DNA of 62,576 nt, the filler included, from Kipferlia bialata (lineage: Eukaryota): assembly GCA_003568945.1 (NCBI GenBank). It is 3 parts of 3 records of this genome, joined end to end, with 100 filler letters (N's around TTAATTAATTAA, not from the genome) between each part and the next. Parts side by side here need not be neighbours in the genome. Positions count along the whole stretch, not along the records: positions 1 to 20,845 come from BDIP01000351.1; positions 20,946 to 41,720 come from BDIP01000354.1; positions 41,821 to 62,576 come from BDIP01000355.1. One strand, 5' to 3'. The notes below the pieces were generated by a model that worked only from the letters and a program-made list of their open reading frames with translations, did not search any database and was not told the origin of the DNA. Within the stretch, counting starts at the first letter, position 1. Every line of letters starts with the position of its first letter. The translations under genes and the position numbers were made by a program. Shown one piece after another: positions 1-62,576 of the stretch.

Positions 1-62
<62 letters not shown>

Positions 63-72
63 CTTAACCCTA

Positions 73-3000
73 GTCCTCCCCATGGCCCTCTCCCGTGACT
101 TTGCATGGGGTGTGCACACCTCCCCCTCCCCCACCCCCACTCTCTCCATGTGCCATGTCGACCCAGAGACATTCCCAGCAGTGACCATACCACTGACACC
201 TGAGGTGAATATATATATACACTACAATATATGCATATATATATATACGGGTGTGTGTGTGTCATGTCGACCCAGCAGTCACCATTCCACTGACCGAGGA
301 GGTATATATGTGCATATCAAGAGGACTATCCACGCTTTCCCCCTGCTCTGTTCCTCTACACCTCCTCTCACACCAGGCCCTCCAGGCCCACCTCTGTTCT
401 AGCAAGGGCTGGACCATCTACCCCTCTCTCTCTCCTCCCCTCTAGACCCTTATATCAGGCTCTCCAGGCCCACCTCTCCACCTGCAAGGGCTGGACCATC
501 TACCCCGTGGCATGCTTTGCCCTTGCCCTCAAGGATGCCAATGGTCCCGTACCATCTGTGGTCATGGTGGGTAGTGGCACAGTGCCCATGGCATCGGGGC
601 TTAGTAGTAGCAGGTAACATAGGATATAGACGTCTATATCTCTATATATTGTATTGTATTGTATTGTGATACGGAGTCTCCACCCCTCACCCCAGTGCCC
701 TGACCTGTGCCTCTCTGATAGTGGCCAGCACAGTGCTCTCTCTCCCTGAGGTATGCATCGATACATATTGGGATTGCTAATTCTATTGTGTGTTTACCTC
801 CGCCTGAATTTCCTCCCAGATATCCATATGCTCCTATATGACTCTATTTTTTCGTGTTCATGACCTCAGCCCCTCTACACCCGTGCTGCCATAGCCAGCA
901 GGGCCAGTGAGGCAGAGAGGCTGATCGGCATGGAGGGTACGGCTACATAGTATGTACATGTGCAACACAGTGTCACATCTCTATATGTCTATTCCTACCC
1001 CAGGTGGCGGTATGGACCAGGCCATCTCCATGCTGGCCCAGAGGGGATATGCTTCACACGTCGAGTTCAACCCAGTCAGGTACCATATCTCTCTCTCTCT
1101 CTATATATATATATACACACACCTAATATGCATCACATGTGGAGTTCAGCCCAGTCAGGTACCATATCTCTCTCTCTCTCTCTTGCCCTTTGTGTGTGTC
1201 TCGCTATAGAGCCACCCCCGTCCCCTTCTTCAAGGAGGAGTGTGCCAGGGTCTCTCTCTCTCTCTCTNNNNNNNNNNNNNNNNNNNNNNNNNNNNNNNNN
1301 NNNNNNNNNNNNNNNNNNNNNNNNNNNNNNNNNNNNNNNNNNNNNNNNNNNNNNNNNNNNNNNNNNNNNNNNNNNNNNNNNNNNNNNNNNNNNNNNNNNN
1401 NNNNNNNNNNNNNNNNNNNNNNNNNNNNNNNNNNNNNNNNNNNNNNNNNNNNNNNNNNNNNNNNNNNNNNNNNNNNNNNNNNNNNNNNNNNNNNNNNNNN
1501 NNNNNNNNNNNNNNNNNNNNNNNNNNNNNNNNNNNNNNNNNNNNNNNNNNNNNNNNNNNNNNNNNNNNNNNNNNNNNNNNNNNNNNNNNNNNNNNNNNNN
1601 NNNNNNNNNNNNNNNNNNNNNNNNNNNNNNNNNNNNNNNNNNNNNNNNNNNNNNNNNNNNNNNNNNNNNNNNNNNNNNNNNNNNNNNNNNNNNNNNNNNN
1701 NNNNNNNNNNNNNNNNNNNNNNNNNNNNNNNNNNNNNNNNNNNNNNNNNNNNNNNNNNNNNNNNNNNNNNNNNNNNNNNNNNNNNNNNNNNNNNNNNNNN
1801 NNNNNNNNNNNNNNNNNNNNNNNNNNNNNNNNNNNNNNNNNNNNNNNNNNNNNNNNNNNNNNNNNNNNNNNNNNNNNNNNNNNNNNNNNNNNNNNNNNNN
1901 NNNNNNNNNNNNNNNNNNNNNNNNNNNNNNNNNNNNNNNNNNNNNNNNNNNNNNNNNNNNNNNNNNNNNNNNNNNNNNNNNNNNNNNNNNNNNNNNNNNN
2001 NNNNNNNNNNNNNNNNNNNNNNNNNNNNNNNNNNNNNNNNNNNNNNNNNNNNNNNNNNNNNNNNNNNNNNNNNNNNNNNNNNNNNNNNNNNNNNNNNNNN
2101 NNNNNNNNNNNNNNNNNNNNNNNNNNNNNNNNNNNNNNNNNNNNNNNNNNNNNNNNNNNNNNNNNNNNNNNNNNNNNNNNNNNNNNNNNNNNNNNNNNNN
2201 NNNNNNNNNNNNNNNNNNNNNNNNNNNNNNNNNNNNNNNNNNNNNNNNNNNNNNNNNNNNNNNNNNNCCTCACTATAGAGCCACCCCCATCCCCTTCTTC
2301 AAGGAGGAGTGTGCCAGGGTCTGTGTCCTCAACTCAGGCACAGTGGCCGACAAGAAGACAACACTCGACCAGAACTACAACAGGTATGTATGATAAAGGG
2401 AAGAAGGTACATATACACTGCAACATGTATGGATGAGTGTATCTACACAGTTTGTTTCGACTTTTGAGTGTACAAATTTTTAATCTTGTGGAGACTGACT
2501 CACCATATAAGCAGGTAAGTCACTGACTATTCTCTTCCCCCCCCCTCTCTCTCTGTCCCTCACCCCCTAGGAGAGTGGCCGAGTGCCGCCTGGGGTGTCT
2601 GATGATCAGCCACGCACACATACAGAAGACAGGTATATTCGTATTGTATATGTTCAATATATATCACTATATGATGTATACTATTGTCTTATTATATATT
2701 CATTTGTCTCATTATATATTCATTTGTGTGGTGATCAGCCACACACACATACAGAAGACAGGTAAATATAGTACATGTTCAATATATATCAATATATGCT
2801 ATATACCAGTGTCTTATTATATATTCATTTGTGTGGTGATCAGCCACGCACACGTCCAGAAGACAGGTAGTGTGTATACAAGTGTGTTATCACTGACAAC
2901 TATCCCAGTGTATATGTATCTCTTACCGTAGGGGCTGACTGCACTGTGAGAGACCTCCTCAAGAGCCCCAAGGACGTTATCCCTGCCACCATCTGCAAGA

Positions 3001-17075: not shown

Positions 17076-17810
17076 GACATCCCATCCTACATTGAGAACA
17101 ATGACCAGTGGCCCAAGGTATTGTGATAAACAATGTACTATATTCATACATATACTACTATATGTGCTATACTACTAGGTATATATATATATATATGATA
17201 ACAATGACAAGTGGCCCAAGGTAATGAGATACACATATATACACATACATATGCTAAGGACATGTTGTGTATAACTGTATATAGCCCCAGTCTCCTACTT
17301 CTTATGATTCTCTCTCCCCCTCTACACCCTTATTCCAGGTCCTAGATGCTGCCCTCACCTCTCTCAACAAGTGGCGGTTCACTCTGTTTGGTGTGCTTGA
17401 CAACAAGTATATCCTCCAGAGGGTGGAGGTAGGGATATATATATACATTTGTAGATATGTTTGTAAGTACTCTGTGTATACGTATGTGTGTATATGTACT
17501 CTGTTTGGTGTGCTGGCACTCTCTCCCTCTCTCTCTCTCTATTTCTCACCTCCTCAGTCAGTCGTGTTTTAGCTCTCTCTATATACACAAACACCCACAA
17601 CTCTCACCCTCTCAGTCCATAGCCACCCAGGTCGTGGATGGTGTCAACACTAGGATGCATTCTCTCTCTCTCTCTCTCAATATATATATATACTAAACTC
17701 CATCTCACTCAGTCCATAGCCACCCAGATCAATCTCTCTCTCTCTCCCCCCCCCTTAACCTTAGTCCATAGCCACCCAGGTAGTGTCTGGTGTCAACACC
17801 AGGATGTGCA

Positions 17811-17848
<38 letters not shown>

Positions 17849-18010
17849 ATATATATATATATATATGTATTAACCCCTTAGTCCATAGCCACCCAGGTTG
17901 TGGCTGGTGTCAACACTAGGATGTGTTGATTATCTCTCTCTCTCTCTCAATCTCTCTCTCTCTATATATATATACTAATCTCCATCTCACACATAGCCAC
18001 CCAGATCAAT

Positions 18011-18051
<41 letters not shown>

Positions 18052-18145
18052 ATATATATATCTATTAACCCCTTAGTCCATTGCTACCCAGGTTGTAACT
18101 GGTGTCAACACCAAGATGTGTCATCTCTCGTTCTATATATATATA

Positions 18146-18182
<37 letters not shown>

Positions 18183-19181
18183 TAAACTCCATCTCACTCA
18201 GTCCATAGCCACCAGATCAATCTCTCTCTCTCTCTCTCTCTCCCTTAACCATAGTCCATAGCCACCCAGGTCGTGGCAAGTGTACTCTCTCTCTCTCTCT
18301 CTCTATTATATGTCTCTTACCCCCTTAGTCCATAGCCACCCAGGTTGTGTCTGGTGTCAACACCAAGGTGGTACTCAAGCTGAGTCTGGGTACAGTACTA
18401 GAGAGACACGAGGTATATAGATAGATATATATATATATATACTGTAGTATACTACCTTGGTACTCAAGCTGAGTCTGGGCACGGTACTAGGGAGGCATGA
18501 GGTAGGGTATTGTTATATATATACTATAGTCTGTATATGTGTGTATATATATACTATAGTGTGGATATATATACTGTAGTATATATACCTTGGCACTCAA
18601 GCTGAGTGTGGGCACAGTGCTGGAGAGACACGAGGTATATGTATATATATATTATTATTATTACAGTATATATAATACAGTGAGTGTACTACCTTAATGG
18701 TACTCAAGCTGAGTCTGAGGACAGTGCTAGAGAGACATGAGGTATGTATAGATAGATACTATAGTGTGTGTGTGTATATATATACATATATATATATATA
18801 TACTCTAGTATACATATCTTGGTACTCAAGCTGAGTCTGGGGACAGTCTTAGAGAGACACGAGGTAGGGCATTACTATATATATACATATATACTATATA
18901 AACGTTGAGTTACTATAGTGAGTATACTAGTATACACTACCTAGATGGTACTCAAGCTGAGTCTGGGGACAGACACGAGGTATATTCTTTTATATTTATT
19001 AATTAATATATACAGGTACCATGCATGTTATTGGGTGGACTATACTTAGAGACACATGTTGGGGTATCGAGTACACGCCAATATATGTATATTATTATGT
19101 ATGAATATTCCCTTACACCAGTTTGAGGTGTACCGTGACTTTGATGGCAAGTGTCAGGTGACCAGCCACAATGTGCAATAG
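17076..19181 (+). CDS. Cystatin-family cysteine protease inhibitor domain (3' part of gene)
   Basis: Phase-0 exons 17076-17117, 17339-17428, 18329-18412 and 19122-19181 give DIPSYIENNDQWPK VLDAALTSLNKWRFTLFGVLDNKYILQRVE SIATQVVSGVNTKVVLKLSLGTVLERHE FEVYRDFDGKCQVTSHNVQ*. The QxVxG motif is QVVSG. Confidence 0.8.
17600..18985 (+). repeat. Array of partial copies of the cystatin QVVSG exon: 8 acceptor-side copies upstream, 5 donor-side copies downstream
   Basis: (ag)TCCATAGCCACCCAG.. occurs at about 17616, 17713, 17765, 17882, 17992, 18077, 18202 and 18255. GTACTCAAGCTGAGT..GAG(gt) occurs at about 18460, 18593, 18700, 18822 and 18948. Confidence 0.95.
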
Positions 19182-20115: not shown

Positions 20116-20151
<36 letters not shown>

Positions 20152-20845
20152 CCCGTGGCGGTGGTCGCGGTGGTCGCGCCTGGGGGTGAGGGGGTATTTA
20201 TATATATACGTGAGAATTATATAATAACGCCTGGAGGTAAGAGATATATACCTGAGAATTTTATATATATAGTACTACTCATGTACGTATATCATGTACC
20301 TCCCACCACTCCTGTCATTCCCCCTGTGCCTGGAGTCCTGGTTCCTGCCATTGCGCCTGGGGGGTAAGAGGGATGTAGAAACAAACACACACATAAATAT
20401 ATATATATGTATATACATATATATCCGAGTATATATGTACCTGTACCCGCCCTCGTTGTGCCCCCTGCTTTGATATATAGAATGGTATATATATATACTC
20501 ATATAGTATATATATACATATGTCTCTATATATATACCTGTACCCGCCCTCGTTGTGCCCCCTGCTCTCCCTGTCGTGCTTGTAGTGCTGGTAGTCACTG
20601 CCAGACGGCATGTCCATCCTGATATCAGTATATATATAGTGTATATGTAATATATTATATACATGTTGTATAGTGCATGCAGTGATAACATAGTATTCTA
20701 TAGAGAGTATCTGTAGTGCTGGTAGTCACTTCACTGGACCCCAACTAGTTGGTGTCATATATTCAATATACTATCAGTATAAACACTATATACCTGTTCA
20801 CCCCCGTGTGCCCGTATGACTGGACCACTGGGCCAGTGACTGATA
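20019..20845 (-). CDS. 3' end of a gene with an R/D/G/H-rich low-complexity C-terminus (possibly an RNA-processing factor)
   Basis: Small exons give MDMPSGSDYQHYKHDRESRGHNEGGYR, RNGRNQDSRHRGNDRSGGR and RDHRDHRHGDSDHQPKYNRRR* (stop 20019-20021). The gene is truncated by the scaffold end. Confidence 0.55.
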
Positions 20846-21032: not shown

Positions 21033-21501
21033 TACCAGTCACAGTATGGTGGCAGTGGAGTGATTGAGGTGTCCCTCTGTGCCAGGGGTCAGCATGAGTC
21101 AGACACGGTGGGGCTGGAGAGTGACACGCCCTTGAAGGTACTCTCTCCCTATCTCGACATACTTCTTTGTATCTGTGGAGAGATTAGTTGCCTCTTCTCT
21201 CTCCCTCTCTCTCCCTCCCCCTTACCCCCCAGGCCCCCCCTTCCTCTGACAGGGACTACAGAGGGGTCATGGTCATCAATGCAGCAGGTGGGGTTACACA
21301 GCTCTTGCCACACATACACGTACCCTACTCTCTTGCCCACCTCTCTCTCCATACCCTTACCTATAGGCACCCACCAGATCTCTGTCCAGCACCTGGGTCC
21401 CAGCCACTTGACACTGGTACCATCGGTCAGGTAGTGTATGCATATATGTCTCGCTCTCTCTCTGACGTCACCCTAGGAGTGACCCCTCCCTCACTGTGGG
21501 C

Positions 21502-21543
<42 letters not shown>

Positions 21544-43634: not shown

Positions 43635-44441
43635 TTAGTAGTCAATCTGGGCGAGGTTGCAGAATATCTCCTCCAGTGGCTCTGAAGATACACTCCAGAG
43701 CACTCCAGTCTCTCCCTCTCCCTCTCTCTCTCCCTCTCTCTCTCCCTCACCGCAGAGTAGAGCATATAGAGTGGAGAGAGTAGCATCAGGTGCCAGTCTA
43801 AGGGTGACACACACTCTCTCTCCCCCTCTCTCTGTCTCTCTCTCCCTCTCCTCTGATACTACAGGGCAGGTGGCTCTTATCCTGTCTTAGATAGAGAGAA
43901 TAGAGAGAGACGGATAGATAGAGAGAGCTAGATAGAATAGAGATATCGTGTCAACGCCAAGATAGAGGTATATGATATATGGTATCATATAGCCTCTACA
44001 TTATTGGTTAATGGAGCATGTTACCTCTCTGCTAGTGTATGTACCGCTCTCCCACCGCCATCACCAGAGTGACTGCGAAGCTGCACAGCGACACCATTGG
44101 CAGCCTGAGGGGGTTAGCAGTTGTAGTGATGTATGTAATATATACTATACATATATACTGCAGTAATGTATATATGAAACCATAACTCATATATAGCAGT
44201 CACCTGTCTCTTCAGTACTGACACCCGTGCCTCTATATACACCATCCAGTATGCATAGATACCAATATATACATAATATATACAACACACACACACACGT
44301 GTACTCACACACACATATTTATATATATATATATATATATACACTAGTACCTGTCTCTTGAGCTCCAGCACTGACCCCTGTGCCACCAGCTGACCCTTCC
44401 TAAGGACACCACATCTGAGGTGAGGATAGACAGATACACTA

Positions 44442-44490
<49 letters not shown>

Positions 44491-46484
44491 CATATTACAC
44501 TATACCAGTTTCTCAGGACACCGCACCTGAGGTCAGGTAGGTATATGCTATTATGGGAGAATGTATAACACTCTATTACACTGCAACCTTACATCTAATT
44601 ATAGAACTCTATAGTACCTGTCTGCCAGCGCCTCTGCCTCCCCCATCGAGTGTGTAGTATCGTTATACATACACACATATATGAATCAATACACACACAC
44701 ATATGAATATATATTCATTAATGTATTATACCTGTCAGCCAGTGCCTCTGCCTCCCCCATCGAGTGTGTGGTGAGTACCACAGTGAGTGACGCAGCGGCC
44801 TCTAGCAGACCAGTCCACACGCCCTGTCTGGTGGCTACATCTAGGCCGGTGGTGGGCTGAGGGTAAGTGTATGACCCATGATACATAGGCACACACAGTA
44901 AGTAATTAATGTAACTAGTACTGGGATGCCTAGTGGTTTAGAGAACAGTAAGAGTGATACAAAACACAAGTCATATGCGGTATATATACAAGGTGTGTAT
45001 TATTTCACCCTGTCTGGTGGCTACATCTAGGCTATGCCCATCTCTCTCTCTCTCTCTCTCAATTCCAGTATATATACAGATACACAATATCAAGTATATG
45101 TACATGTATGCACACACACATATACATGATATACTATGAATACCTCATCTGCTAGGAGTATGGACAGAACTAGGTATATATGATATATATGCGCAAATAA
45201 ATAAATATAAAGTATATATATATATTTAATATATACAATATATACCTCATCAGCCAGGAGGATGGACCTGGCCCCTAGGACAGCCATGCCCATCCCTCTC
45301 TCTCTCTATCCCTCTCCGTTCTAAGTATATATAAGTATATATAAGTATTTTTGTATGAATATATACTACTATGTATGAATACCTCGTCAGCCAGGAGTAT
45401 GGACCTGGCCCCTAGCACAGCCATGCCCAGAGACATCCTGCGTCTCATGCCACCAGACAGCTCACCTGGGGTGGGGAAATGAGTGGATACAGTATACACA
45501 GCATAATATACGTGATAACAAGCTATATATATGGAGAGACATATCTTACGCCTCATGCCGCCTGACAGTTCACCTGGGGTGGGGATAGTATATTTAGTAT
45601 ATATATATATATATAATGCAGTATTTGATTGTAACTGTATTATATGGTACCTGCCCTCTTGTGTGCATGCTGCACAAGACCCACTGTGCCAAGGGCCTGC
45701 TGCACATGTACCTCTCTCTCTCTCTCTCTCCCACGCACGTCAGCGATCAGGTCCATGTGCTGCCTGGTATTAAGGATATGGCTACTGCTACGTAAAATAC
45801 AGTATAGTGCAACCGCTTAATTTACGGTCATGATACTACACGACAGTAGCGTAACCGCGTACCTCACTGTCATGTTGGGCCAGTAGAGGTCGTGCTGCGG
45901 CACACACACCACGTGGTCACTGACTATGGCTCTCTCTCTCTCCTGTCCCTCTCCCTCTGTCCTCTCTGCCCCTCCCTCCCTGTCAAACATGCACTGACCA
46001 CTGAGCATGCCCTTGCCACAGTCAGGGTGCAGGATACCTGTGATTAGATACGCACCCACACCCACACACACATATGTATATGTATATATACATATCCACA
46101 TGTACTATAGATATATACATGGAGTTAGACAGCAGTCCTGGCTTGTACATGTACATAATACACATGGATGTACAACTGAGGGATCTCCGTTACATACTAT
46201 TCTGTCACATATATATATCAACATGCCACACACCTGCTATACAGTAGATCAGCCTTGTCTTGCTAGCATAACAATAGCCTATATTACATATACTATATGT
46301 ACACATATATACATTGAATAGCCCATACTACGTATATCATATGTATACATATATACATTGAATAGCCTATACCACGTATATACTATATACAAACACAAAG
46401 ACGTACCTGTGATGCAGTTGATGAGGGTGGTCTTTCCGGCCCCATTGACACCCAGCAGTGCATATACTACATACATACACTATA

Positions 46485-46524
<40 letters not shown>

Positions 46525-49425
46525 ACATGCCTGTGATGCAGTTGATAAGGGTAGTCTTTCCAGCCCCATTCACGCCCAGCAGTGCATATACTACATACAT
46601 ACACTATAGGCATATATATATAGTATACATGCCTGTGATGCAATTAATCAGTGTTGTCTTTCCGGCCCCATTGACCCCCAGCAGTGCATAGACCTCACCC
46701 TGCCTCAGGGTCAGGGAGACACCACGCAGGGCCTAGGGGGTTAGATATACAGGGGTATATATATATATATGTATATATGGGTGACCAGGGAGACACTTCG
46801 GAGGGCCTGGGAATAAGGTAACCAAATGATGTATTGAATATATAATATGCATATCTTATACATATATATAGTGTCATTGATACCACGTAAGGTAAGGGAA
46901 AGATATCCATAGGAATAGAACGAGTGATGGATGTATGTCAACATATATATATACATAAGGTCAGATAGATGAACTTCAGGTATATATGTATATACCCATA
47001 TACCTTAGTTCCATTACTGTATGTGTGGTGGATGTCTGTCAGACTCAGACTGGCNNNNNNNNNNTCCATTACTGTATGTGTGGTGGATGTCTGTCAGACT
47101 CAGACTGGCATCTGATAGAGTACACGACACACAATATATATATATATATATATATGTATCTATGTCTATACATGCCTACCTTTGTGCCATTACTGTATGT
47201 GTGGTGGATGTCTGTCAGACTCAGACTGGCATCGGGTGCCATATCAGCCCCTGCCTCATCCCCGTACTCGTCTTGCTCACTCTCACTCTCACTGGCAATG
47301 GGTACAACTGACAGAAGGGCAGTATCCTCTGGAGTTCTAGTGGTTAGATGGTAACAGAGACACTTGGCCATCTAGATGATGTATGCATGTGAGTACATCT
47401 ACTCGAGAGTACCTTGCATCACCCCCACTGAATAGGCCAGCTACATATGCAGCTACACCCCTAACCACCCTGTGAGTGCCTCTGAGCACAGAAAGGGCAG
47501 TACCCCTCACACTCCCCGCCTAACGGTTAGGATGCCAACAAATAGTGTGGTCAGCAGTAGTATATATACTATATTGCACACCCTACCTGAATCAGGCATG
47601 CCCCGGCTAGATAGAGCACTATACCCACTACACACTGCATAGGAAGGTGATCTGTGGAGGATGGGTGTGACAACATGTCACAGAAGGCAAGAGGGGGGAA
47701 CAGGAACATGCCTAATTGTGAGGATGGTGTGTAGTGTCTATAATAGGAATGAATAGGAATATATTAGGACATTACATATGTCACAGAAGGGGGGGAAGAG
47801 GAATAACCTTGATTGTGAGGTTGCAAACAGACTGTAGAAGAGGAAACGGCATAATACCAGTACAAGTGTTCTATAAAGACAAAAACAGAAGACAAAGAAA
47901 CAGAATATATTGAGAAACTATTCTATCGACGCAAATATATATCCATAATACAGGTGAGTAGAGAGGTACAAACATGCTGACCTGCTGTAGGTGGGACAGA
48001 CATAATATAGTAATAAACAATGATGTTAATCGAAATATGTAATATAATATATATTGTATGTAATATATATGTAATATATATGACTATATATATGACACCA
48101 TGCTAACCTGCGGTAGGTGGGACAAAGACTCCCAGGACCAGGGAGCAGACTGAGGGGTCAGAAAGTGGATGAAACTTAAGATACTTATGGCTGGGTTCTA
48201 CAATATTTGTATAGAGAGAGAGAGAGGGAGATAAGGAGAGAGATGAAATACACACGAGACCAGGGGGCCCAATGGACATCAGAGAGTGTCTAACCTCAAT
48301 GAGGAAATGCGTATATACCCATATGCGTACCCATATACATACCCATATATGTGTATTTATGTACATATGTATATGTGTACATGCGTACCCATGAGTATAC
48401 TGGACACGATCGATGCAGTGGCCTGGCGCTTGAGGGTGACACCTTGGGGTGAGACTCTATATGACTATATATATATATATATAATACCTATATATATAAT
48501 ACTATACGGATAAATGATGTACCTACGAGTGCCCCACATGCCACACACCCCAGTATACCCAGCATGAATGACGTGAATATATATATATACTATATGGGTA
48601 CTATACATATTGATTCTCTATACAAATATGTGTACATATGTATATACCTACGAGTGCTCCGCATGCCACACACCCCAGGGTACCCAGCAGGAATGACGTG
48701 AAGGTCTGGAGCAGGTCCTCTGAGAACAGGGAGAGACCAAGGACAGAGCCTATCAGTACGGCGAGGAGGGAGACACAGAGACCTAGGTGTTAGTACATAG
48801 TGTGTATTAGTACATGTACATAGATTAGGGGGAGAGACCAAGGACAGAGCCTATCAGTACGGCGAGGAGAGAAACACACACCTTGTGGTTTTACGCAGTT
48901 ACAACATAGAGAGAGATGTTAGGGAGGGAGACACAGAGACCTAGAGGAAAGGCATACTTGAAAGATCATATTATATGTAAGGCACACTTAAAAGACTATA
49001 TAATATAGACTATGAGGACATCCAGTATCAGTATCATCATACTGACACTGATAATGCCATTTGTGATGTATGGTGATGTATATAGTGTGTAGTATGTATG
49101 TACTACAGGTCCTCACCCTGCACCTATGGTGTGTCTCTACGTATATATCACATGTACCACTGTTATATCTATATATATATACTCACTGAATAGGATACCC
49201 TGCACCCCAAAGTATGCAGGAGTAACAATATTCAGCACAATATATAATACAGGTGTATTAAGATGCCCATATCATTGTCCTCACCTTCCACCTATAGTAT
49301 GCAGAGACCATCAGGGTAGGTATCTACGTCTATATGATATATAACTATATATACTCACTCTATAGGAGTCTATCTATATATATACTCACGGTATCAGCAG
49401 GTACATTGCATATCTTTATCTATAC

Positions 49426-49472
<47 letters not shown>

Positions 49473-49905
49473 CATATATACCCTGTACACCATAGTATGC
49501 AGCCACCATGAGTGTATGGGATGCAGGGGACAGAGAGTGTATCCTGAGCAGTCTCACTCTGCCGTTCTCAAGGTCAGAGGCCAGGGAGACAGCAACCCTG
49601 GAGTAAGCAAATCTATATCTACATATATCTACATATATATATATATATATCACAATGTGTGTATGTGGGTGTAGGAGAGAGATATGCGTAGTGTAGTATA
49701 TGTATCGCATAGTATGAATATTCACATACCTTGGTATAAAGACGAGGGCCACGATAGGAGCCAGCAGCTCCGTCAATAGGGAGAGAAGGGCACCTGGGAT
49801 AAGGCCACAACATACCCACATATACACACATATATATATACAGCAATACAGATATCATACAGACATAAGGAGAGAAAGGCACCTGCGATTGGAGTGCAGA
49901 CACAT

Positions 49906-49940
<35 letters not shown>

Positions 49941-52260
49941 CATATGTATATATACACGTATATAGATATATACACATAAATAGCCGTACATAAAAGACAC
50001 ATACACACGTATATATTAATACAGAGATAGAGGTAGATGGAAATATATACTCAGATAACCGTATATATGAGCTTCTTTGTGGTGATTGGTATGAATAGTA
50101 TGACAGATCGGAGAACATGTTATCACTTAGAAGTTCGCATGGACATATACGCATATAGTATATGTAATATAGTAATGTATACATCCACTCTACTTGTGTC
50201 CATCGTATAGGTTGCATATGGTGTATATGTACCTAGTATATGTAGAATATATACAGTATATATATACATATATAGTATACATCCACTCTACCTGTGTCCA
50301 TCGTGTAGGAGGGATCTGCGAAGAAGGGGTACTGCTGGAATCTGAAGGTGAGTGTATTGACAACCCCATGTATGCGTGTGTACTGTTTCTGACCACACAC
50401 ATTCCTTTTTACTACGAATATAGTATAGTAACGAAAATGTGTCTGTTGCATTATATCATGTGTATATATCATGTAATATATATAATAGTACTTGTGTACC
50501 TGACCCACTTGGACGGGTTCTGGTATATATATTGAACACTTGCAGTATTCTATATGGCGTAAAATACTGTTGAGTATAGTAGTATTATGTATATATATAG
50601 AGCAATTACTCACCTGACCCCTAGGGACACGTCCATGCCATGGCCTGGGTGCATGCTCTGGGGGGTGAGACACTATGGTATATATGTATATATACATATA
50701 GTATATTGACACTATTGTATATGTATATATACATATAATATATTGAGTATTATGTATTAATGTAACATACACATATACGTATATATATATATGCACTTGG
50801 ATGCTCTGGGCGGGGGGAGACTGAGTGTACATATGTATATACAGGTGTGTACAGAGAGAGAGACACACTGAGGATATATATTATGAATAATGAGGGGCAA
50901 GACACTGTGGTATATGTATATACAGATGTGTACAGATAGAGAGAGACACTGAGGACTAGTATGATATATATATATATATATATATATTCATGTCATTGTG
51001 TGAATACGGATGATGGATGTAGGTACCTAGAACCCCCTGGCCATTGCTGTCAGTGAGGTATATATATACATATACTGCATATATAGATATATAGATACAA
51101 TATATATATATATATATATTCCTGGTACCGCCTGGCCATAGCTGTCTGTGTGGTATATATACGTATACTACATATATAGAATATATAATACTATATATAT
51201 ATATGACTCTGTGTGAATACTAATATTATATATAGTAGTACCTGGTACCCCCTGGCCATGGCTGTGTGGGTGGTGCGGGATATGTCGTCATTGACCATGC
51301 CGATCCAGAGCACTGGGACCCTAGGAGTTAGTATATGCATATATATATATTCACATAGTATATATAGTGCATGGTATATGTCTATGTTTTATGACCATGT
51401 CTATCCAGAGCACAGGCACTCTGGTGGTGAGTATATATATACATGGTGCCATACCATATACATATGTATATACCTAGTAGGCAGTGTCATATACACTGGC
51501 TCACACATGTCATGTCCGTGGCACCCCTGGTAGGTGGTGGCGATGGCAGTGACACGGAAACGACTGAAGGTGACAAGTATGAATATAGAGGCTCACTATA
51601 ATATGTGGAATTTATACCAATATGAAGTGAACTGTGTAAATGTGCCGAACACACGTGTATATACATGAATATGGGTGTGAAAGGAGTAACGGAACTTGCT
51701 GAGAGGGTACATACACGTAATAATACACAAATACGAATCTAATGTATATAATACGTACACGTAATCTGAGATGGACGCCTGGCCCTCCGAGTTGACCTGG
51801 ACAAGGTGGCTGGGTGTTAGATACACTATTACAATATCGGTATGTATTATAATATCTAGGTATAGTATATATATATATATATATATTTATAATACAGATG
51901 TATTGGTGAGTTGACCTGGACAAGGTGGCTGGATGTTAGGGAGTGAAGCATATTGCATATACCTATATACATATTCACAAAAATTAGGTGATGATACTAT
52001 ACTATACATTGGTGAGTTGACCTGGACTAGGTGGCTGGGAATTAGATGCATGGGTTTATTAGTGCCATATGCTAGAGTACAATTATACATTGCCATTAGC
52101 AAATGAACATAACATACCTTCCATTCTGTAGCTGGAGGTACACGTCTGAGTGGGGGTAGGCCCAGGGGGTCTGGTATAAGGGTGTAGAGAGAGAGAGAGA
52201 GAGAGAGAGAGTAGGCCCAGGGGGTCTGGTATAAGGGTGCAGAGAGAGAGAGAGGAGGGG

Positions 52261-52295
<35 letters not shown>

Positions 52296-52633
52296 GCCAT
52301 GTGGGTCTCAATCATATCCTGATCATCATATCCTGGTATTAAGGGTGCAGAGAGAGAGAGAGAGAGAGAGAGAGACAGCGTGCAAGAGTAGGCCTAGGGC
52401 GCCTGGCATTAGATAATGGGGTAGAGAAAGGTTGTCAGAGAGAAAGTGACAGAGAGACCCTCACCTGGGGTGTGTCTGGTATACATGTGTATATAAATAT
52501 ATGTGTATCACCTGGGGTGTGTTTGGCAGCCACGTGATATATATATATATATATGTATATATGAATATGTATCTATATCTATATACATATATATATGTAT
52601 ACATTAATCACCTGTGGTGTGTTTGGCAGCCAC

Positions 52634-52665
<32 letters not shown>

Positions 52666-55600
52666 GAATATATAACAATGTGTATATCTATATATACATG
52701 TATACCTATATATTTATATCACCTGGGGTGTGTTTGGCAGCCACGTGTGCACATATATATATCTATCTATCTATATCTATATCTATCTGTATATATACCA
52801 ATATATCACCTGGGGTGTGTTTGGCAGCCACGTGTGCATCCTGTATGCATAGTGGGAGAGATCAGCATCTGCCACTCCTGTCTCTCTCTCTCCCTCCCTC
52901 TCCCCCACTCCAGTCTCCCTCTCTCCCTCCCTCTCTCCCTCCGTAACAGAAGAGGGGTCAGGGTAGTCTAGGTACAGGGACTCAACTGATATCAGACATA
53001 TTTAAGCATTGTATACTCGATATATACATACATAAACACAGAGTGTATTCCCTATATAAGAAAATGCACAACTAAATGACACACATGGTAAATGCACCTA
53101 CATAGTTGGGCAGCACCCTCCTCATCTGCCTCATGGCCAGGTTATACCCATATGCATCGTTCTCGTAGCCAAAGTAGTCGTTGGAGCGCTGGATACTGTT
53201 GTTAGTGATATATATATACACTGTATATAGCGTATATACATATACGATACTGAATGAGTATTACTCATAGTCAAAGTAGTCGTTGGAAGGAATTAGAGCA
53301 GTATATGTATACATCTATATATGTATAGTATACACAGACCTCACTATATATGAGTATGTGTATATATGAATATGTAAATATATACTATATACCCACCTCA
53401 CAATGTCCCTGTGCATAACGTCCACTATATGGTATATATATCAAATCCACTCTCTAACAGAGAGTCTCTATATATTGCCCTGCATAAAAGTACTAGTACC
53501 TCACAATGTCCCTGTGCATGTGATCGACAGAGTCGTACGTGAATATGTCGATGGTGCTGTTAGAGATCCAGGGGTCGGCTGGGGGTCAGACAACAGAACT
53601 ACATGGTCCATGTAGTACATGGATGCATATACTAAACCATCTCATACTACTATTGTGTATGTAGATGAAAAAGAATTTGTCGATGGCGCTGTTGGAATAT
53701 ATATCAAGATAATGAAAGTGTCGGCTGGGGGTCAGACACATATATATGTGTGTATATGGGATATATATATGGGGTATGTGTGTATGCGATGCAGCTGCAG
53801 CTTAAGTAGATCATAGATCAGACACGGAACATAACAACACACAAACAGTGACATCGACAATAGAGACAAAAGAACAAGAAAAGAGGAGAGAAAAGACAAA
53901 AGAAAAGCACGACACACATGGGATGTTCCCTCCACCTTGCTCTATCTATATTTCTGGAAATACTGCATATAGTGTATATGGCATATATAATCTATAGTTA
54001 GACATGGAAGATAACTACATGCATACTCACCACTGCAGTTGGCCATGTAGTACTCACTACTGGTATTGCAGTCATCCCTGGGGTCAGGGGATTACTAATG
54101 TGTATATATACATATGTATATATACACATATGTATATAATATAGATATATGTATATACATATATACGATATTGTGTACTCACTGTTGGTGTTGCAGTCAT
54201 CCCTGAGGTCAGACACAGTGATCAAGAGAATCATAACACATATATACAAATATATAGCAGATGTATACTACTGTATATAATAGAATACCTATATGCACTG
54301 AACCTGGTTGAAGGTGTCATATAGTATACTATATACACCTCATTATAGTATTTATAGTATATAAAATATGGCTCATATACATACAACGCACCTGCACTGG
54401 ACCTGGTCGAAGGTGACAGGGTAGATATAGTATAATGAAAATACAATACCATATATACATATGTAGTCTAATATATATGGTGAATAGACACTTTAGTAAT
54501 TATTGTAGATATACCACGCATAAATATCTATATATATACAATAGCTACAACGCACCTGCACTGGACCTGGTCGAAGGTGTGGTTTCTGGTGTAGTGGTAG
54601 TATGGAGCCAGGGCATAGTTGCACTCAAACTGACAGTCATACACACTCTCCTCACAGTCGTCTCTGACGGCACTTACAAACCTAAGTTTTAGCAGCAATA
54701 TATACAAGTATTAGTAGTGTATATGTGTAGAGAGAGGTGTTACACGCTCTCCTCACAGTCGTCTCTCATGACACTGAAGAAGCTAGGTGTTAGCAATATA
54801 TACTATGAAGTAGTATATAGGTATAGAGAGAGAGGTGTTACACACTCTCCTCACAGTCGTCTCTGACGGCACTGAAGAAGCTAAGGGTCAGCAGCAATAT
54901 ATACTATGAATAATAATCATGAATAATAATCAGTAGTATGTATGTATAGAGAGAGCTGTTACACACTCTCCTGGCAGTCGTCTCTCATGACACTGAAGAA
55001 GCTAGGGTGAGACACACACTCCATAATATATGAAACATCAGTATACTATAACACTGAAATCGCTGAGGAAAATATATCGTAAGAGTATGTACAGTAGGTC
55101 CTAGACACGCCATAATGGAAGTCATACATACTGTCCTACACTTATATATATTCAAATATGAGAGAGGGTGTGCATGAATCTATGGTATGTATATACACAT
55201 ATAGACGGTCGTACCGTCTTCCCATGAAAGGCCAGAACCCTCTAGCATATAATAACGGTTCTTTACACATTTGTACACATATATGTATCTATGATATGTA
55301 TCTTGTTTGTACCGTCTTCCCATGAATGGCCAGAACCCTCTAGCATATATATATATTTATATATATATGTGTGTGGGTGTGTTACACATATAGATGGTCG
55401 TACCGTCTTCCCATGAATGGCCAGAACCCTCTGGTGTCCTCATCCTTGGGGTCGGGGTAGAGGACAGGGTCCTAGAGTGAGACGTGGCATACCAAGACAC
55501 AGAGTACATGATCGGGTACCGACACTGTCAAGTATATATATACACACACATTAACACACATATGGTATGCACATTCTCCTAATGTGTATCTATATATGAA

Positions 55601-57046
55601 TCATGTATGTATGTATATATGCATATATATATATGTGTATGTGGATATACCTTGTCCATGTACATGTTGTCCCAGTGTGCATCCAGTACATATGTATATA
55701 TCCATTTACATGCAAGTATATATATATAGTGAGATATATTAATATAACTATACTTGCCTTGTCCATGTACATGTTGTCCCAGTGTGCATCCAGTACACTC
55801 TGGTCAATGTACCCATTGCTGTTGTCGACTGGGGTGAGAAGTCTACATATATATAAATATATGTATTCAATATATGTATACTATATACGTTCCAAGTATA
55901 GCGAGAGGGAAACATGTGTACTAGATACATAACACCAAATAGCGACATATAATAGCGATGATTGATGTGTACCTAGGTATCCATCGCCCATCCAGCCGTA
56001 GGGTATGATGCTGTCAAGGTCTGAGGCAGAGCTACGCGATGGTGGCCACTCACCCTCCCTGCCCGCGTAGGAGTTGATGGCGCCCATGCTCTCATAGCCC
56101 AGGCTCGATACACCGAACTTATGGGTAAGAGATGTAATAGATGTAGACAATACAATGTGCTACACTTGTTATATCTTCAGAGTACTATATAAACTTCTAC
56201 TATCAACCATACTCTATTAGCTAATATGAAAATGAATATGTATGTGTATAGATTAGAGTGAGTGTGTATATATATGTGTGTGAATATACACTGGTACCTC
56301 TCCCAGCACTGTAGAGGGGTCATTAACGGTGTACGGGAACTGCCAGTTGACATCAAGGCCCTAAGGTGAGATAGTGACACTAGTAACAACTATAAATAGT
56401 ATTTATAGGTATACACATATATAAAGAATTATATATATATATAGAGAGAACTAGGACTCAGATCAGAGGAGTATCTCCCAGTTAACATCAAGGCCCTAAG
56501 GGTCAGATATATAACACAAACAACTACAAACACGGGAATATATGACACAGACTCATCTCAGAGTAGTATCATACTCAATGATCATGTATCATGTCAGATG
56601 AAAACCCATACGGGGAAATAGTCCCTGCTCAAGGAAACAGACACTGTATATATATTATATCTGTATGGGTACACATCCAGAATGGAACATTCTTACACGT
56701 GTATATATACCTCGTAGAGCAGATAGCTGTAGCAGGGATCGCTGGTCATGTAGACTCCGACATTGGTTCTGAAACAGTCGTTGGGTCTGGAGTCAGATAT
56801 ATATATATATGTAAGATATATATATTATATGATGAGACAGAGAGAGAGAGAGAGAGTATTTATGATGAAACAGTCACTGGGTCTAGGGTGAGGTGGATAC
56901 AAGATATGAATGTAAATATGTATATATGTGTATATAAATGGAAGGACAGAGGGAGAGATAGTAGCATAGTGTTGGTTCTGAAACAGTCACTGGGTCTGGA
57001 GTAAGATTATTATATATGTAAGATATATATATTATATGATGAGACA

Positions 57047-57088
<42 letters not shown>

Positions 57089-60000
57089 ACCTCTCATCGA
57101 GGCATGTGTCCATGTCTAGGTACCCGTACAGGGCACAACAGTCTAGACACTGGCTCTGTACCTATATGTCAGTATACAAATATGTGTATGTACATATATA
57201 GGTATATATATATGGGTGTGTGGGTGCACGTATATAGATATATGTCGAAGGAGTTAGTCTAGACACTGGCTCTGTACCTATATATGAGTCGTATACAGGG
57301 AGGGAGAGAGAGGGAGGTCGTAGGGTCATACAGTAGTCTGGGTCTATATGTGAGTGGCTTGCATTTAGATATATTTAGATACATATGTGTATATACGTAT
57401 CTAGAGAGAGAGAATATTAGAATCCATACAGTAGCCATCAGTCTATGGGTGAGCGGAGGATCAATAGGGAGACACTCTACAGCGCATATTATGGCAGGTG
57501 GCATACATGTACATACAAATACCTTTGTGTAGTTGGTACCACGGTGAGGTATGCATTCATATGTACACACACACATATATATATGTATATACCTCTGTGT
57601 AGTTGGTCTGGTACCATGTCTGGGAGAAACGCTCCAGAATGGGACCTGATGGATAAGGGAGAAGTGTATATATATGATATAGTAATACAATTACATAAAT
57701 ATATATAAGGGAGGAAATAGCACCTGAAGCAACCCACACCCAGGGTTGTATAATATCATATACGTGTACTGTATCTCATTAGATGTGAGTTACCGGTCCA
57801 TTATAAAGTTTGGATGTACTACGTGTGATATAGGCAGCAATTTGCTTGTATACTCAGAGTATACCTGTCTTATAGGATATATATAGGAAATATATAGGAT
57901 ATATAAATGTTGGATATATATAATATATAATACTATATATGTATATGTGACATATTAATGTATATGTAGGTATTATACCTGTCACAGCAACCAGGGCCGC
58001 ATTGATACAGAGCATATACATACACATATAGTATAATATATTACAAATATGGTGCATATACAAGTATATACATGCATGATACTCACAATAAGACACTAAT
58101 GCTAACACTAGTGTAAATATATATAACTATATATAATACAATATATACATACCTGTCACAGCCACCAGGGCGGCATTGATGCAGAGCAGCACAACAGCGA
58201 GTATCAGGTGCCTGAATACACCTGGGGTAAGATTAAGGGTGTCATATCAGAGACACACATATGGTAAATGTATGATGTAGTTACCTATACACTCATTCAG
58301 ACAGTTTACGAAACCACAGAATAGCATCCTGTCTACGTATAGTATAGCAGTCTATGTATATAGTACATATCCCCTACCATAGTCAAAACGGCTACTGGTG
58401 TAAATATGTGAATACATATATTGCATAATTATATTCATATATATTATGTATTGCAATACAGCACTCACCCACTCTGTCCCCTCTTCTCTTCCTATTGATA
58501 TATACAAATATATATGCACCATCACTTCAAATATACAGTATATGTGCATGTGTATACAGTACATTGACTCACCCATGCCACTCTGTGCCTGGTCCACTAG
58601 GAACGCCTTTCTGAACACACCCCACCCCCATCCCGAGAGTACTCTCTGCATCACACTCTGAGTGGCCTCAGTGCTGAGATCCTCAGTGACATCTGCTGTA
58701 GACGGGGTGTGTGTGGTTGAAGGTACACTCCTCTCTCCCTCTCCCTCTCCCTCTCCCTCTCCCTCTCCCTCTCCCTGTGTGTCTGTGTCTAGGTCATGTC
58801 CAACCATGGAGGTGAAGACATGCTCTAGAGAGGCCCTAGCGTAAGACATATATGATACACACTCACTATGTATAATAGTAGAGATGAACACATACTGCGA
58901 GAGAGGCCCTGAGGTTAGACTAGTACCCTAGCAGCGCACACAGTTACGATATAAATACGATATACTATCATTCAATATACTATAGCGGACAGTGTATACC
59001 CATAAGGTGAGATACCTCTCGATGAGAACCATATAGTATAACGTATATAGTGTATAGAGTGTATAGTATATAGTAAATAGTAAATAGTATGTACTATATA
59101 CTGTATATTCATAAGGTCAATGATACCTCTCGATGAGGAAGTCTGTCACATGTCCCTTACGCCTCTGCTCCTCAAGGTTCCTGGCCACCTATCGCGTAAG
59201 AAATTAAGAGCGTGGACTATCGAGAAAACACATAATGGCATAGCAATTGTGTACCATAGAGTAATATATATTAAATCCGCTATTGTTGATGCCACACATA
59301 TCAGCTCTCACTATATATCATGTATCATATATCATATATACCTGAGGTAGAAGGCGACCGTCCTCCTTGGGGACCGAGAGTGTCACGACATGCTGGGACA
59401 AGAGGGAGACAGAGGCAGCTGGGGCAACAGACCTATCAGTTAGATATATATATATAGAGAGAGCGAGAGAGAGAGGGAGAGAGACAGAGACAGAGGCAGC
59501 TGGGGCAACATACCTATCAGTTATATATATATATAGAGAGAGAGAGGGAGAGAGAGAGAGGCTGTGACAAGAGAGAGACAGAGGCACCAGAGCTACAGAC
59601 CTAAGTGTTTGGTATATATATATATATATATATATATAGAAAACATAGTCTATGGACACTCGAGTGAACATGGATAATACGGAATCACCACGCACCTCAC
59701 TGTATCCACCACAGCCTGACATACACCCTCTCCCCCTGTGTGCTGTGTGCTGTCTATGGATATATAGTATATTTAATATACATTACTATATATATATACA
59801 TTTCATTACTATATATATATATACATATGAATATATATGCACCGTACCGCACTGTATCCACCACAGCCTGACATACTCCCTCTCCCCCTGTGTGCTGTGT
59901 GCTGTCTATGGAAATATACATTACTATATATATATATTTATATTTCATTACTATATATATATATGTATATGAATATATATGCACCGTACCGCACTGTACC

Positions 60001-62340
60001 CACTACACTCTGGCACACACCCTCTCCCCCTGTGTGCTGTGTGCTGTCTATGGATATATACACACATACACACACATATATATGCACCGTACCTCACTGT
60101 ATCCACTACAGCCTGGCACACCCCCTCTCCCCCTGTGTGCTGTGTGCTGTCTATGGATATGGATATGGATATGGTCACAGTGTATCCACCATGTCTCTGC
60201 CTCAGGGCAAAGGAGGACCCAGTGTCTGAGGTTAGTGATAATATATATAGTACACACAATATATATAAACTACATGAGTCCACTGTCCATAGGGTAACGG
60301 ACATATACATACCATACCTTACTATAGGATGTATACTTTCCACAATGGATATATAGTATAACTGTTGGGAATAGTCTATAAAGATTGGTATACCTTGCTC
60401 GTACCCCTATGCAGATTGCTAGATATAATGTATACCATATAGATGTATATATAGACATACACTCACTTTGCTTTACATCCAATATACATATATACTTACA
60501 TATATATATGATACCTATCACGTGTCCTCTATGGAGGATGCTGGTCCAGACAGATGTACACTATACAATGTAAAGACATAGATTGTTTAGATACAATGTA
60601 TAGATAGAGATATAGTATAGAATATATACATGCCACTGTACAATGGTATACCTAGCACATGCCCTCTGTGCAGGATGCTAGACATTTACGCACTGCACTT
60701 TACATCCAATATTCATATATATATATATATATATAATACTGTAATACCTAGCACATGTCCCCTGTGGAGGATGCTGATCTCTGAGGCCAGGCGCTGGACC
60801 TAGTGAGTAAGAAGGTGTCAGTGCCATATATATATAGACTACCAATTACAAACAGTGTATGGTACACACATATGTATACATATACACATGTATTATTCAT
60901 ACCTCCCCCATGCTGTGTGACGTCAACAGACATTATACAAACACTATATGATAATACAATATATAATCACGTTCATATATGTATCTCAATGATATCCTCA
61001 CCTCCCCCATGCTGTGAGATGTCAACAGACACCCACTGCCCTGCTCCCTCAGAGAGGACATGTAGGACCTGGGGTGAGGGACATATATAGATGTGTGTGT
61101 GATATATGTATATACATGATTGTAGGGCATGGGGGGAGACGCTGTAAAACATATACGTATATGTATATATACTAGTGGATGTGTGGTCATGTAGGACCTA
61201 TGATGAGGGAAAAAGATACATATACAGGAGGATATACGAATATGTGAATGTATTTACACTGAAACTACTGGATATCGTGTGACTAGGACATAATTAGGGG
61301 GTATAGAGTATATACACATACCACACTGTCCTCTTCTTATGTATTTATATATTGATATTGTATGTATACTCACCACACTGCCCTCTTGGTAGCTGGGTCC
61401 AGACCCGTGGTGGGCTCATCAAGGAAGATGAGGCTGGGGGAGCCTGGTTGTTATTATGTATTATGTATATATATATATATATATACATAGATGCATACCC
61501 CCAGAGAGCTCATGGACCTAGGGGTGAAAGGCAAAAGAATGTAAACACATATATGGAGATGTACATGACGTGACAGCTCCTGGACCCAAGAGTGAATTAT
61601 ATAAGCATACGAGACAAGTATAGAAGTCTACTGCATACTATACTCTGTATATATATACATTAATTATATATTGAATCTTTCTGCTTCTGTGTGGTCTCAG
61701 TAGTCTCACTCCATACCTGTACTTATCTACACACATTTCCACATATGTTACTGATACACCACACTACCAAATAGTCAGACTATACATATCTACATATATA
61801 TATAAATATATTGGTATCTATATATGACTATGTATATGTGTACCTTTCTGCCCCTGTGCTGCAGCAGCCTCACCCCCTACACTTATAAATGACATAAACA
61901 TAAACTAATCAATTACATATTATACATTATACTAACTAGTATACCTTCCTGCCCCTGTGCTGCAGCAGCCTCACCCTCTTAACTACTATATAGTTATATA
62001 TATATTGATTCCTGTTATGTATACCTAGTACTCCCTCCATACCTTTCTGCCCCTATGCTGCAGCAGCCTCACCCCCTTTAGGATGGTGTGACAGACAGCA
62101 TCACGCTCAGCCTTAGAAGTCACACCACGGATCCTGCGGTTAGGTCAGAAGCAGTGTATACGCTAAATCCATAGAGAGCTACAGATACAATATATTAGAA
62201 TACATTCAATATTGAATTATCCTCAGTACACTCGATCGTGCGTGGGGGACATATCCGACGTACCTAAGCGCATTGATGACGTTCTGCTCGACTGAGAGGT
62301 CTACCCAAAGGTTCTCATTGAGCTGGGGGCATACACCTAC
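43635..62340 (-). CDS. ABCA: Full-size ABCA-subfamily transporter (partial NBD1, TMD/ectodomain, NBD2), many exons, 5'-truncated
   Basis: NBD1: [18 protein letters not shown] (about 62275-62337), [43 protein letters not shown]2: [23 protein letters not shown] (46732-46633), [59 protein letters not shown] and [13 protein letters not shown] (TAA 43635-43637). Confidence 0.93.
46407..46693 (-). repeat. Three tandem 61-nt copies of the Walker A exon end
   Basis: 46633-46693 (part of the real exon), 46531-46591 and 46407-46467 all translate to [20 protein letters not shown](G). Confidence 0.97.
59695..60155 (-). repeat. Donor-side exon-end array in ABCA (real exon end plus 3 copies, about 60 nt each)
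   Basis: [26 protein letters not shown] unit at about 60091-60155, 59990-60055, 59848-59911 and 59696-59760, separated by TA-rich spacers. Confidence 0.9.
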
Positions 62341-62576
62341 CGCGTAAGATTCAGATGGACACATGAACATATAGCAGTATCAGCATCAGCATCAGTACCG
62401 ATAGTAGCAGGGTAACAGTGGGAAAGTCACAATCGGAACAGTATTGATAGTAGCATTATAAGTTCATTAAATTATAGTATCACAAACAATAACATACCCA
62501 CACCCACCTATGTGTCTCTTGGCAAAGAACGTCTGGCAGCTATCGTGTAGATCATAACCCATGACCCTGACGCTTG

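What the first reader, a model, noticed from the sequence alone, without database searches (positions are those of the whole stretch)
1..62576. Exon-edge echo arrays: polarised intronic half-exon copies that keep the reading code
Seen: in GALK, the cystatin, HECT, the cyclin-like gene, ABCA and others, on all three unrelated scaffolds, introns hold 1-8 tandem partial copies (about 15-60 nt) of the adjacent exon edge including its splice site. The copies are separated by (TA)n/(TC)n spacers. In the arrays I traced, copies of [branch point-AG + exon start] lie upstream of the real exon and copies of [exon end + GT] lie downstream. No copy has both ends, so none is a complete alternative exon. 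Seen: differences from the real exon fall mostly on synonymous third positions. Knowledge: an untranslated copy should gather changes at all three codon positions. Inference: the copies are filtered at protein level or sampled from functional sequence. Candidate mechanisms are (a) unequal crossover or conversion between highly diverged alleles, (b) copies cycling through the functional position as a cassette archive, (c) DNA- or RNA-level deletion between repeats, or (d) mRNA-templated repair. I am not aware of a described system of this form, but I cannot search the literature.
Basis: partly seen in the sequence, partly recalled or inferred. Interest (0 to 1): 0.92.

Follow-up and report, generated by a model that had tools for sequence, protein, structure and literature searches.

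The report
Exon-edge copies that look like alleles
In the free-living protist Kipferlia bialata, 63 of 146 introns examined carry short copies of the neighbouring exon's edge, most with its splice site, a repeat type known from lancelets as "mirages", but here the copies differ from the live exon mainly at silent codon positions and keep full-strength splice signals, which likely means they are displaced working exon edges brought in from very different versions of the same gene.

Summary
Across 146 introns on three scaffolds of Kipferlia bialata (named), 63 hold 134 copies of the adjacent exon (12-61 nt, 1-8 per edge). All 46 acceptor copies lie upstream, all 55 donor copies downstream, and none has both ends. 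Separately assembled DNA contigs reproduce five copy-plus-exon pairs; a spliced contig uses the exon-proximal sites in 5 of 5 introns. The architecture is a known kind: amphioxus 'mirages' and the human F7/CBS repeats. Polarity follows from tandem geometry. What I did not find described is the filter: 165 of 257 distinct differences fall on codon position 3, and dN/dS is 0.21 (95% 0.16-0.27) against 0.50 for planted neutral copies. Amino-acid changes are conservative. Copied splice sites score as high as real ones although their letters differ. In toy simulations, same-haplotype duplication or cassette cycling gave 0.55 or more; copies born from another haplotype of a highly polymorphic population, or conversion of the exon from one, matched. 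That polymorphism is inferred, not seen. New variant of a known kind.

The parts
258..5456 (+). Galactokinase gene (exons 74-5841): 21 exon-edge copies in 7 of 13 introns
   Evidence: protein equals P0001
4730..5063 (+). Three donor copies of GALK exon 4543-4643 (4730-4767, 4904-4946, 5021-5063); variants shared in a mosaic, one four-gamete-incompatible site pair
3189..3414 (+). Three acceptor copies ahead of GALK exon 3494-3576
17616..18283 (+).
   Evidence: tandem repeat of period 117
18458..18972 (+). Five donor-side copies behind exon 18329-18412; four begin at the same exon position and the farthest has lost its end
   Evidence: periods 89 and 229
20146..20469 (-). Two copies in a gene at the end of scaffold 1
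21478..25221 (+). HECT-like gene: 8 copies in 5 of 26 introns
   Evidence: weak HECT match, E 0.08 on one exon
31434..40956 (+).
31936..32951 (+). Stretch reproduced without a difference by one DNA contig of run X1; holds exons 32114-32161, 32368-32425, 32688-32759 and their copies
   Evidence: record 4
32114..34022 (+). Six exons joined by one contig of run X2 through five GT..AG skips, each at the exon-proximal donor and acceptor, with no other letters
   Evidence: record 10
35929..35976 (+). Acceptor copy of exon 36048-36119 with 11 differences in 48 nt whose four amino-acid changes are E>Q, N>S, G>E and I>V
37158..37526 (+). Four donor-side copies of exon 37008-37077
44210..60932 (-). ABCA transporter gene: 58 copies in 26 of 40 introns
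   Evidence: ABC_tran; paralogues P0002 and P0003 at 65% and 55% identity
52465..52751 (-). Four donor copies behind ABCA exon 52985-52810
   Evidence: period 111
54741..55137 (-). Four acceptor-side copies ahead of ABCA exon 54681-54556
   Evidence: period 98
59696..60048 (-). Three donor copies (57-59 nt) behind ABCA exon 60225-60093
   Evidence: periods 142 and 103

Best explanation
These are mirage-type tandem duplications spanning one splice site, and each copy is likely a formerly working exon edge from a different, highly diverged haplotype, set beside the present exon by recombination or break repair between homologues. Step 1 (inferred): a break in an exon invades the homologous exon, copies through its splice site into the intron and rejoins out of register (one-sided invasion plus end joining, or unequal crossover). 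The new edge becomes live and the old edge is left in the intron: downstream for donors, upstream for acceptors. Step 2 (shown for 5 introns, inferred for the rest): the spliceosome takes the splice site nearest the exon, so the copy is harmless; arrangements that would define a false exon are purged (inferred). Step 3 (inferred): unequal exchange between existing copies lengthens arrays, and copies are lost faster than they decay, so copy-exon differences mostly reflect differences between working alleles.
For: dN/dS 0.207, bootstrap over 81 edges 0.155-0.267; 0.18-0.25 under four other scan settings, 0.49-0.50 for planted neutral copies. Copy-versus-copy dN/dS 0.28. Mismatch 0.208 at four-fold sites against 0.041 at non-degenerate sites. 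Single-base amino-acid changes are conservative: mean BLOSUM62 0.17 against -0.61 +/- 0.19, n = 81. In ABCA they avoid residues invariant in two paralogues (14/202 against 25/161, p 0.01). Copied acceptors score 8.1 bits against 7.4 for real sites (n = 45; random AG -3.7), donors 4.45 against 3.75 (n = 55). A branch motif is present in 32/45 copies and 36/45 real sites (random 6%), yet its 5-mer differs in 19 of 26 pairs. Only 1 of 97 intron flanks is near-identical to the live one. The splice-side half has 94 silent and 33 replacement differences, the inner half 63 and 46 (p 0.013). 0/46 acceptor copies are followed by a donor and 1/55 donor copies is preceded by a strong acceptor (background 9%); donor copies precede acceptor copies in 18/18 introns with both. 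Toy model with homologue-templated birth, theta 0.3 and loss 30 times mutation: pS 0.23, dN/dS 0.23, copy-copy 0.33, against observed 0.20, 0.21, 0.28. Metamonads lack the NHEJ proteins (PMC8516963, passages).
Against: No diverged allele was seen: the X1 contigs list no other letters (though contigs drop variants), one-exon searches for GALK and P0017 each returned a single protein, and a metagenome scan found only distant galactokinases, 36-45% identical. The toy model needs very high silent polymorphism; at theta 0.1 it gave 0.32-0.40 and at 0.03 it gave 0.60. Intron flanks are far more diverged (about 50% identity at +4 to +13, null about 30%) than four-fold sites (79%), which plain allelic sampling does not explain without codon constraint or slippage. 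14 of 39 ABCA replacements hit residues invariant in paralogues. The nearest copy is not clearly the least diverged (15 against 8, 11 ties), and only 1 of 7 large arrays shows a four-gamete conflict. Junction microhomology was not tested.
Confidence: 0.5

Rival explanations
1. Copies arise by ordinary same-haplotype tandem duplication. The live exon edge is then repeatedly overwritten by gene conversion from other alleles, while the short-lived copy keeps the old allele.
For: One toy setting (sister birth, theta 0.3, allelic conversion 200 times mutation) gave pS 0.19, dN/dS 0.18, copy-copy 0.30 (6 replicates). Nine arrays are recognisable tandem repeats over splice sites, at 81-94% unit identity. 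About 10 of 55 donor copies have closely matching first intron bases.
Against: It also needs unseen high polymorphism and very frequent short conversion. Even the 18 copies with a perfect exon part mostly have dissimilar flanks.
Confidence: 0.2
2. Copies stay in place for a long time under purifying selection because they are used: as minor splice forms, or as spare exon ends recruited when a break in the TA-rich spacer is repaired by annealing or conversion.
For: Splice sites are undecayed and donors score slightly higher than real ones (p 0.025). Intron flanks look old while coding sense is kept. NHEJ is absent in the group (PMC8516963).
Against: The X2 contig carries the exon letter at all 13 copy-exon differences in the 6 scored copies it covers. 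Copies lack a second splice site. Recruitment models gave dN/dS 0.56-0.61, and fast recruitment erased silent divergence.
Confidence: 0.15
3. Plain neutral mirages; the codon bias comes from chance, annotation error or the way copies were detected.
For: The architecture matches known mirages. The P0017 gene alone gives dN/dS 0.41.
Against: The scan is blind to codon position and returns 0.50 on planted neutral copies. Frames are confirmed for GALK and P0017 and by paralogue alignment for ABCA. No bootstrap replicate of 5000 reached 0.5.
Confidence: 0.06
4. Assembly artefact: diverged alleles chained through microsatellites.
For: Short-read draft with gaps. Two scored copies abut N gaps (near 1210 and 47066). 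One ABCA exon present in both paralogues is missing between 61499 and 61443, next to a TA run. X1 may be the source of the window, so it is not an independent sample.
Against: Three X1 contigs (572, 198 and 1016 aligned letters, depth 375-442, no differences, no gaps) each span a copy together with its own exon. An exon-interior-to-intron junction exists in no working allele (inference).
Confidence: 0.04
5. Remnants of whole duplicated exons that were once spliced as mutually exclusive alternatives and later lost one end.
For: It would give low dN/dS and intact splice signals.
Against: Loss of either end should leave some copies on the wrong side; 0 of 101 are, and none keeps both ends.
Confidence: 0.03

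Closest known systems
Amphioxus 'mirages' (Adh3, globins BflGb6 and BflGb9, troponin C, PGBD5). Seen as passages in PMC3087553 and PMC3902484; the original Adh3 paper (Canestro et al. 2002) was not held
   Same: Tandem duplication spanning an exon-intron boundary, at either the 5' or the 3' side; repeated splice signals; normal splicing; similar unit size (150-160 bp in the globins, median 126 nt to the live site here).
   Different: Reported at a few lancelet loci, with units 81-100% identical and concerted evolution. Here 43% of introns examined in a metamonad; most units are too diverged in the intron part to be called tandem repeats; differences follow the reading frame. The word 'synonymous' does not occur in either paper read; the Adh3 paper may say more.
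Human minisatellites over a splice donor: F7 intron 7 (37 bp), CBS intron 13, lamin B2, PDGF, IFI 6-16 (PMC1557585, abstract and introduction)
   Same: The donor is repeated downstream, and mostly or only the most upstream, exon-proximal site is used.
   Different: The F7 unit holds 4 exon bases and identical pseudo-sites. Single loci, no codon signal.
Human CBS 844ins68 (PMC2630376, passages)
   Same: A 68-bp duplication of an intron/exon junction; splicing uses the exon-proximal copy and discards the upstream one, which carries a different coding letter.
   Different: One polymorphic locus, and the discarded copy carries a harmful missense change rather than silent ones.
Intron gain by tandem genomic duplication (Rogers model; as summarised in PMC3087553; search listing)
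   Same: Intragenic tandem duplication that includes splice signals.
   Different: Here copies are depleted of a second splice site, and no new intron or exon was shown.
One-sided invasion and SDSA repair (PMC4888836, passages; the end-joining outcome is recalled)
   Same: One broken end copies a homologous template and is released; the geometry gives the observed order.
   Different: Not reported for exon-edge copies in anything I read, and not demonstrated here.

Membership tests
Mirage minisatellites | Repeat unit spans an exon-intron boundary and duplicates the splice site | tested here: met
   101 of 134 copies carry AG or GT/GC at the copied edge
Mirage minisatellites | Units lie in tandem next to the authentic boundary | tested here: met
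   134 adjacent same-strand hits against 20 non-adjacent and 5 reverse; median distance 126 nt
Mirage minisatellites | Normal splicing is kept and the authentic site is used | tested here: met
   5 of 5 introns bridged by one X2 contig use the exon-proximal sites; minor forms cannot be seen in contigs, and the tool only guesses that X2 is RNA
Mirage minisatellites | Units similar over their whole length (81-100% in BflGb6), with concerted evolution | tested here: inconclusive
   About nine arrays reach 81-94% in Tandem Repeats Finder, but only 1 of 97 flanks is near-identical to the live one
Mirage minisatellites | Copy number varies between haplotypes or somatically | not testable with these tools
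   One sample's contigs only; no long or raw reads offered
Mutually exclusive tandem exons | The copy is a whole exon with acceptor and donor | tested here: not met
   0 of 134 have both ends; second sites depleted
Silent-cassette archive (vls/VSG type; features recalled) | Cassette sequence appears in the expressed copy | tested here: inconclusive
   One contig shows exon letters at 13 of 13 differences; rare conversion would be invisible
Retro-copy or mRNA-templated insertion | The copy lacks intron sequence and may join exons | tested here: not met
   Copies carry branch point, AG or GT and above-null flank identity

The most novel reading that the evidence does not exclude
Kipferlia keeps, beside a large share of its exons, a selected archive of alternative working exon edges. 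In a lineage without NHEJ, the archive is fed by recombination between deeply diverged haplotypes and drawn on for repair or allele switching, so its introns act as a genome-wide store of functional alleles under protein-level selection.
Probability: 0.15. Interest if true: 0.92.

Novelty: new variant of a known kind. Interest (0 to 1): 0.63.

Why it matters
If the best reading holds, one genome stores pieces of several ancestral alleles in its introns. That would be indirect evidence of recombination between very diverged homologues, hence cryptic sex or its equivalent, in a free-living relative of Giardia, and one assembly could be used to estimate past polymorphism. It also shows a reduced spliceosome (87 of 174 proteins found, PMC6679479, passages) ignoring equally strong decoy sites about 100 nt away, a natural test bed for exon definition in a protist. 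Introns with copies are three times longer (median 317 against 107 nt), so the process may drive intron growth. It bears on whether the species' 124,912 introns are ancestral, as PMC5874029 argues (section 12), though no intron gain was shown here. The same codon test can be applied to mirages in lancelets and other marine animals.

Tried and rejected
No whole genome is held, so the census is limited to this window. A permissive gene finder absorbed copies as micro-exons; I used a stricter one plus hand curation. I left out uncertain 5' exons of four genes, the ABCA piece at 61517-61499 and the last exons of the VOC-like and ABCA genes. Flat dispersion of silent divergence (chi2 132, df 133) first suggested a single event, but simulations with a detection limit also gave flat dispersion, so I dropped it. 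Paralogue origin: the two ABCA paralogues are 65% and 55% identical, and only 5 of 39 copy residues match one. Runs X3 and X4 laid nothing, and no listed holder is on record as RNA: no evidence either way. X1 left several bins uncovered, which proves nothing. The metagenome scan found no close relative. The six-replicate simulations were noisy; one search repeated eight key settings with 36-170 replicates and reversed the low dN/dS seen at theta 0.03. Literature searches: Kipferlia + intron; five-term partial-exon search; tandem repeat / exon-intron boundary; exon edge / decoy / protist; internal duplication; one-sided invasion; intron gain; mirages + amphioxus; mirage + synonymous (0 papers). 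None listed a description of this in Kipferlia or of a codon bias in mirages. Subscription papers, the Adh3 paper and all supplements were not seen. PMC2812944 was seen as outline only.
Full report
Setting. The window is three scaffolds joined by N-padded spacers (1-20845, 20946-41720, 41821-62576). A 51-residue exon matches at 100% a protein named 'galactokinase, partial [Kipferlia bialata]' on a 20,845-base contig, and two ABCA paralogues carry the same species name. K. bialata is a free-living fornicate with 124,912 introns in a short-read draft; the passages and sections I read do not mention such copies (PMC5874029).

Annotation. I built a small gene finder and curated its output by coordinates: 159 exons and 146 introns in 13 gene pieces. 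The GALK model is identical to P0001, the 31-41 kb model matches P0017 at 897 of 897 residues, and the ABCA model aligns to paralogues over about 1,190 residues. Uncertain terminal exons were left out.

Census. Each intron was scanned at DNA level against the exons of its gene, with a threshold giving 4 hits in 876 unrelated pairs. Of 159 hits, 134 are same-strand copies of an adjacent exon, in 63 of 146 introns. All 46 copies with AG plus exon start are upstream, all 55 with exon end plus GT/GC are downstream, and none has both ends. Four other scan settings also gave no wrong-side copy. Copies are 12-61 nt, 1-8 per edge on 81 edges. Introns with copies are longer (317 against 107 nt) and richer in TA runs (9.0% against 2.1% of bases).

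Is it real DNA? Over the 3.4 kb laid, three contigs of DNA run X1 reproduce 30880-31451, 31589-31786 and 31936-32951 without a difference at depth 375-442. By my reading of the sequence they span five copy-plus-own-exon pairs, two of them scored in the census. One contig of run X2 joins six exons by five GT..AG skips, each at the exon-proximal sites, with no other letters; it therefore carries the exon letter at all 13 differences in the six scored copies it covers. X1 may be the source of the window, X2 is only guessed to be RNA, and contigs hide rare forms. The other 59 kb were not checked with reads.

Polarity. A tandem duplication across an acceptor leaves the incomplete copy upstream; across a donor, downstream. 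Duplications inside an exon, or ones that create an acceptor-donor pair, should be purged (inference). The data agree: 0 of 46 acceptor copies are followed by a donor and 1 of 55 donor copies is preceded by a strong acceptor, against 9% background; in 18 of 18 introns with both kinds, donor copies come first.

The filter. 165 of 257 distinct differences are at codon position 3, and 159 are synonymous. Transition-matched dN/dS is 0.207 (0.155-0.267 over 81 edges). The proper null is about 0.5, since the exon still drifts at silent sites; planted neutral copies gave 0.49-0.50 through the same pipeline. Copies compared with each other give 0.28. Replacements are conservative and avoid residues invariant in ABCA paralogues, though 14 of 39 do hit them. 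Splice signals behave the same way: copied acceptors and donors score as high as real ones, and the branch motif persists in 32 of 45 while its letters differ in 19 of 26 comparable pairs. Beyond the motif the flanks are barely alignable: 1 of 97 near-identical. A copy thus differs from its exon as one working allele or orthologue differs from another. By gene, dN/dS runs from 0.14 (GALK) to 0.41 (P0017).

Mechanism. Toy population models (30-nt edge, selection on the live copy only) were used to see which histories give these numbers. Unequal exchange among existing copies gave 0.55-1.05 in 10 settings. Same-haplotype birth, with or without recruitment of copies into the exon, gave 0.56-1.01 and 0.59-0.63 with more replicates. 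Birth from another haplotype with turnover gave pS 0.23, dN/dS 0.23 and copy-copy 0.33 at theta 0.3, rising to 0.60 at theta 0.03. Same-haplotype birth plus frequent allelic conversion of the exon also fitted. A full-exon remnant model fails on polarity, and an mRNA template fails on the copied intron signals. I therefore favour import of working edges from diverged homologues, by one-sided invasion with end joining or by unequal crossover, in a group that lacks NHEJ proteins (PMC8516963). The weak points are that no diverged allele was observed and that intron flanks are much more diverged than silent sites. Long-term selection in place stays open.

Comparison. Human F7 and CBS give single-locus parallels with exon-proximal site choice. 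The feature works like a mirage and meets the three defining points I could test; whole-unit homogeneity is met by about nine arrays only, and length instability was not testable. My searches listed no report in protists and none of a codon-level filter; the original Adh3 paper was not available.

Verdict. A real feature and a new variant of a known kind. The architecture is ordinary; its density in a metamonad and the allele-like divergence of the copies are surprising and directly testable. Interest 0.63.

Noticed in passing
window 55757 and 46632 (minus strand, ABCA): Two real introns begin with GC, not GT, while downstream copies of the same exon ends carry GT; the continuous reading frame favours the GC sites.
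   Followed up: partly
window 61443-61600 (minus strand, ABCA first ATPase domain): The exon encoding the signature continuation present in both paralogues is absent; only two partial acceptor-side copies remain, next to a TA run. Assembly collapse or true loss.
   Followed up: partly
window 32890-32980: A short intronic element that attracts many unrelated contigs (summed depth 42,272 against about 400), probably a dispersed repeat of some 100 copies; it occurs once in this window.
   Followed up: partly
window 7140-10660 and 27030-28790: Some intron-rich genes have almost no copies (0 of 11 and 1 of 10 introns), while neighbours have many; copies cluster in genes with AT-rich, TA-laden introns.
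   Followed up: partly
window 42309-43451: An intronless 381-codon open frame with no Pfam match at E 0.1 in an otherwise intron-dense genome.
   Followed up: partly
window 14597-16233 (minus strand): A PCI-domain protein with a PSMD12/CSN4-type match below the curated cut-off; one intron in my model, no copies.
   Followed up: partly
introns throughout the window: The branch motif sits within about 5-14 bases of the 3' AG in 82% of the 83 copy-free introns, a fused branch point and acceptor.
   Followed up: partly
window 1210-1253 and 47004-47112: Copies that abut N gaps may be scaffold overlaps rather than true copies; they were kept in the counts.
   Followed up: no
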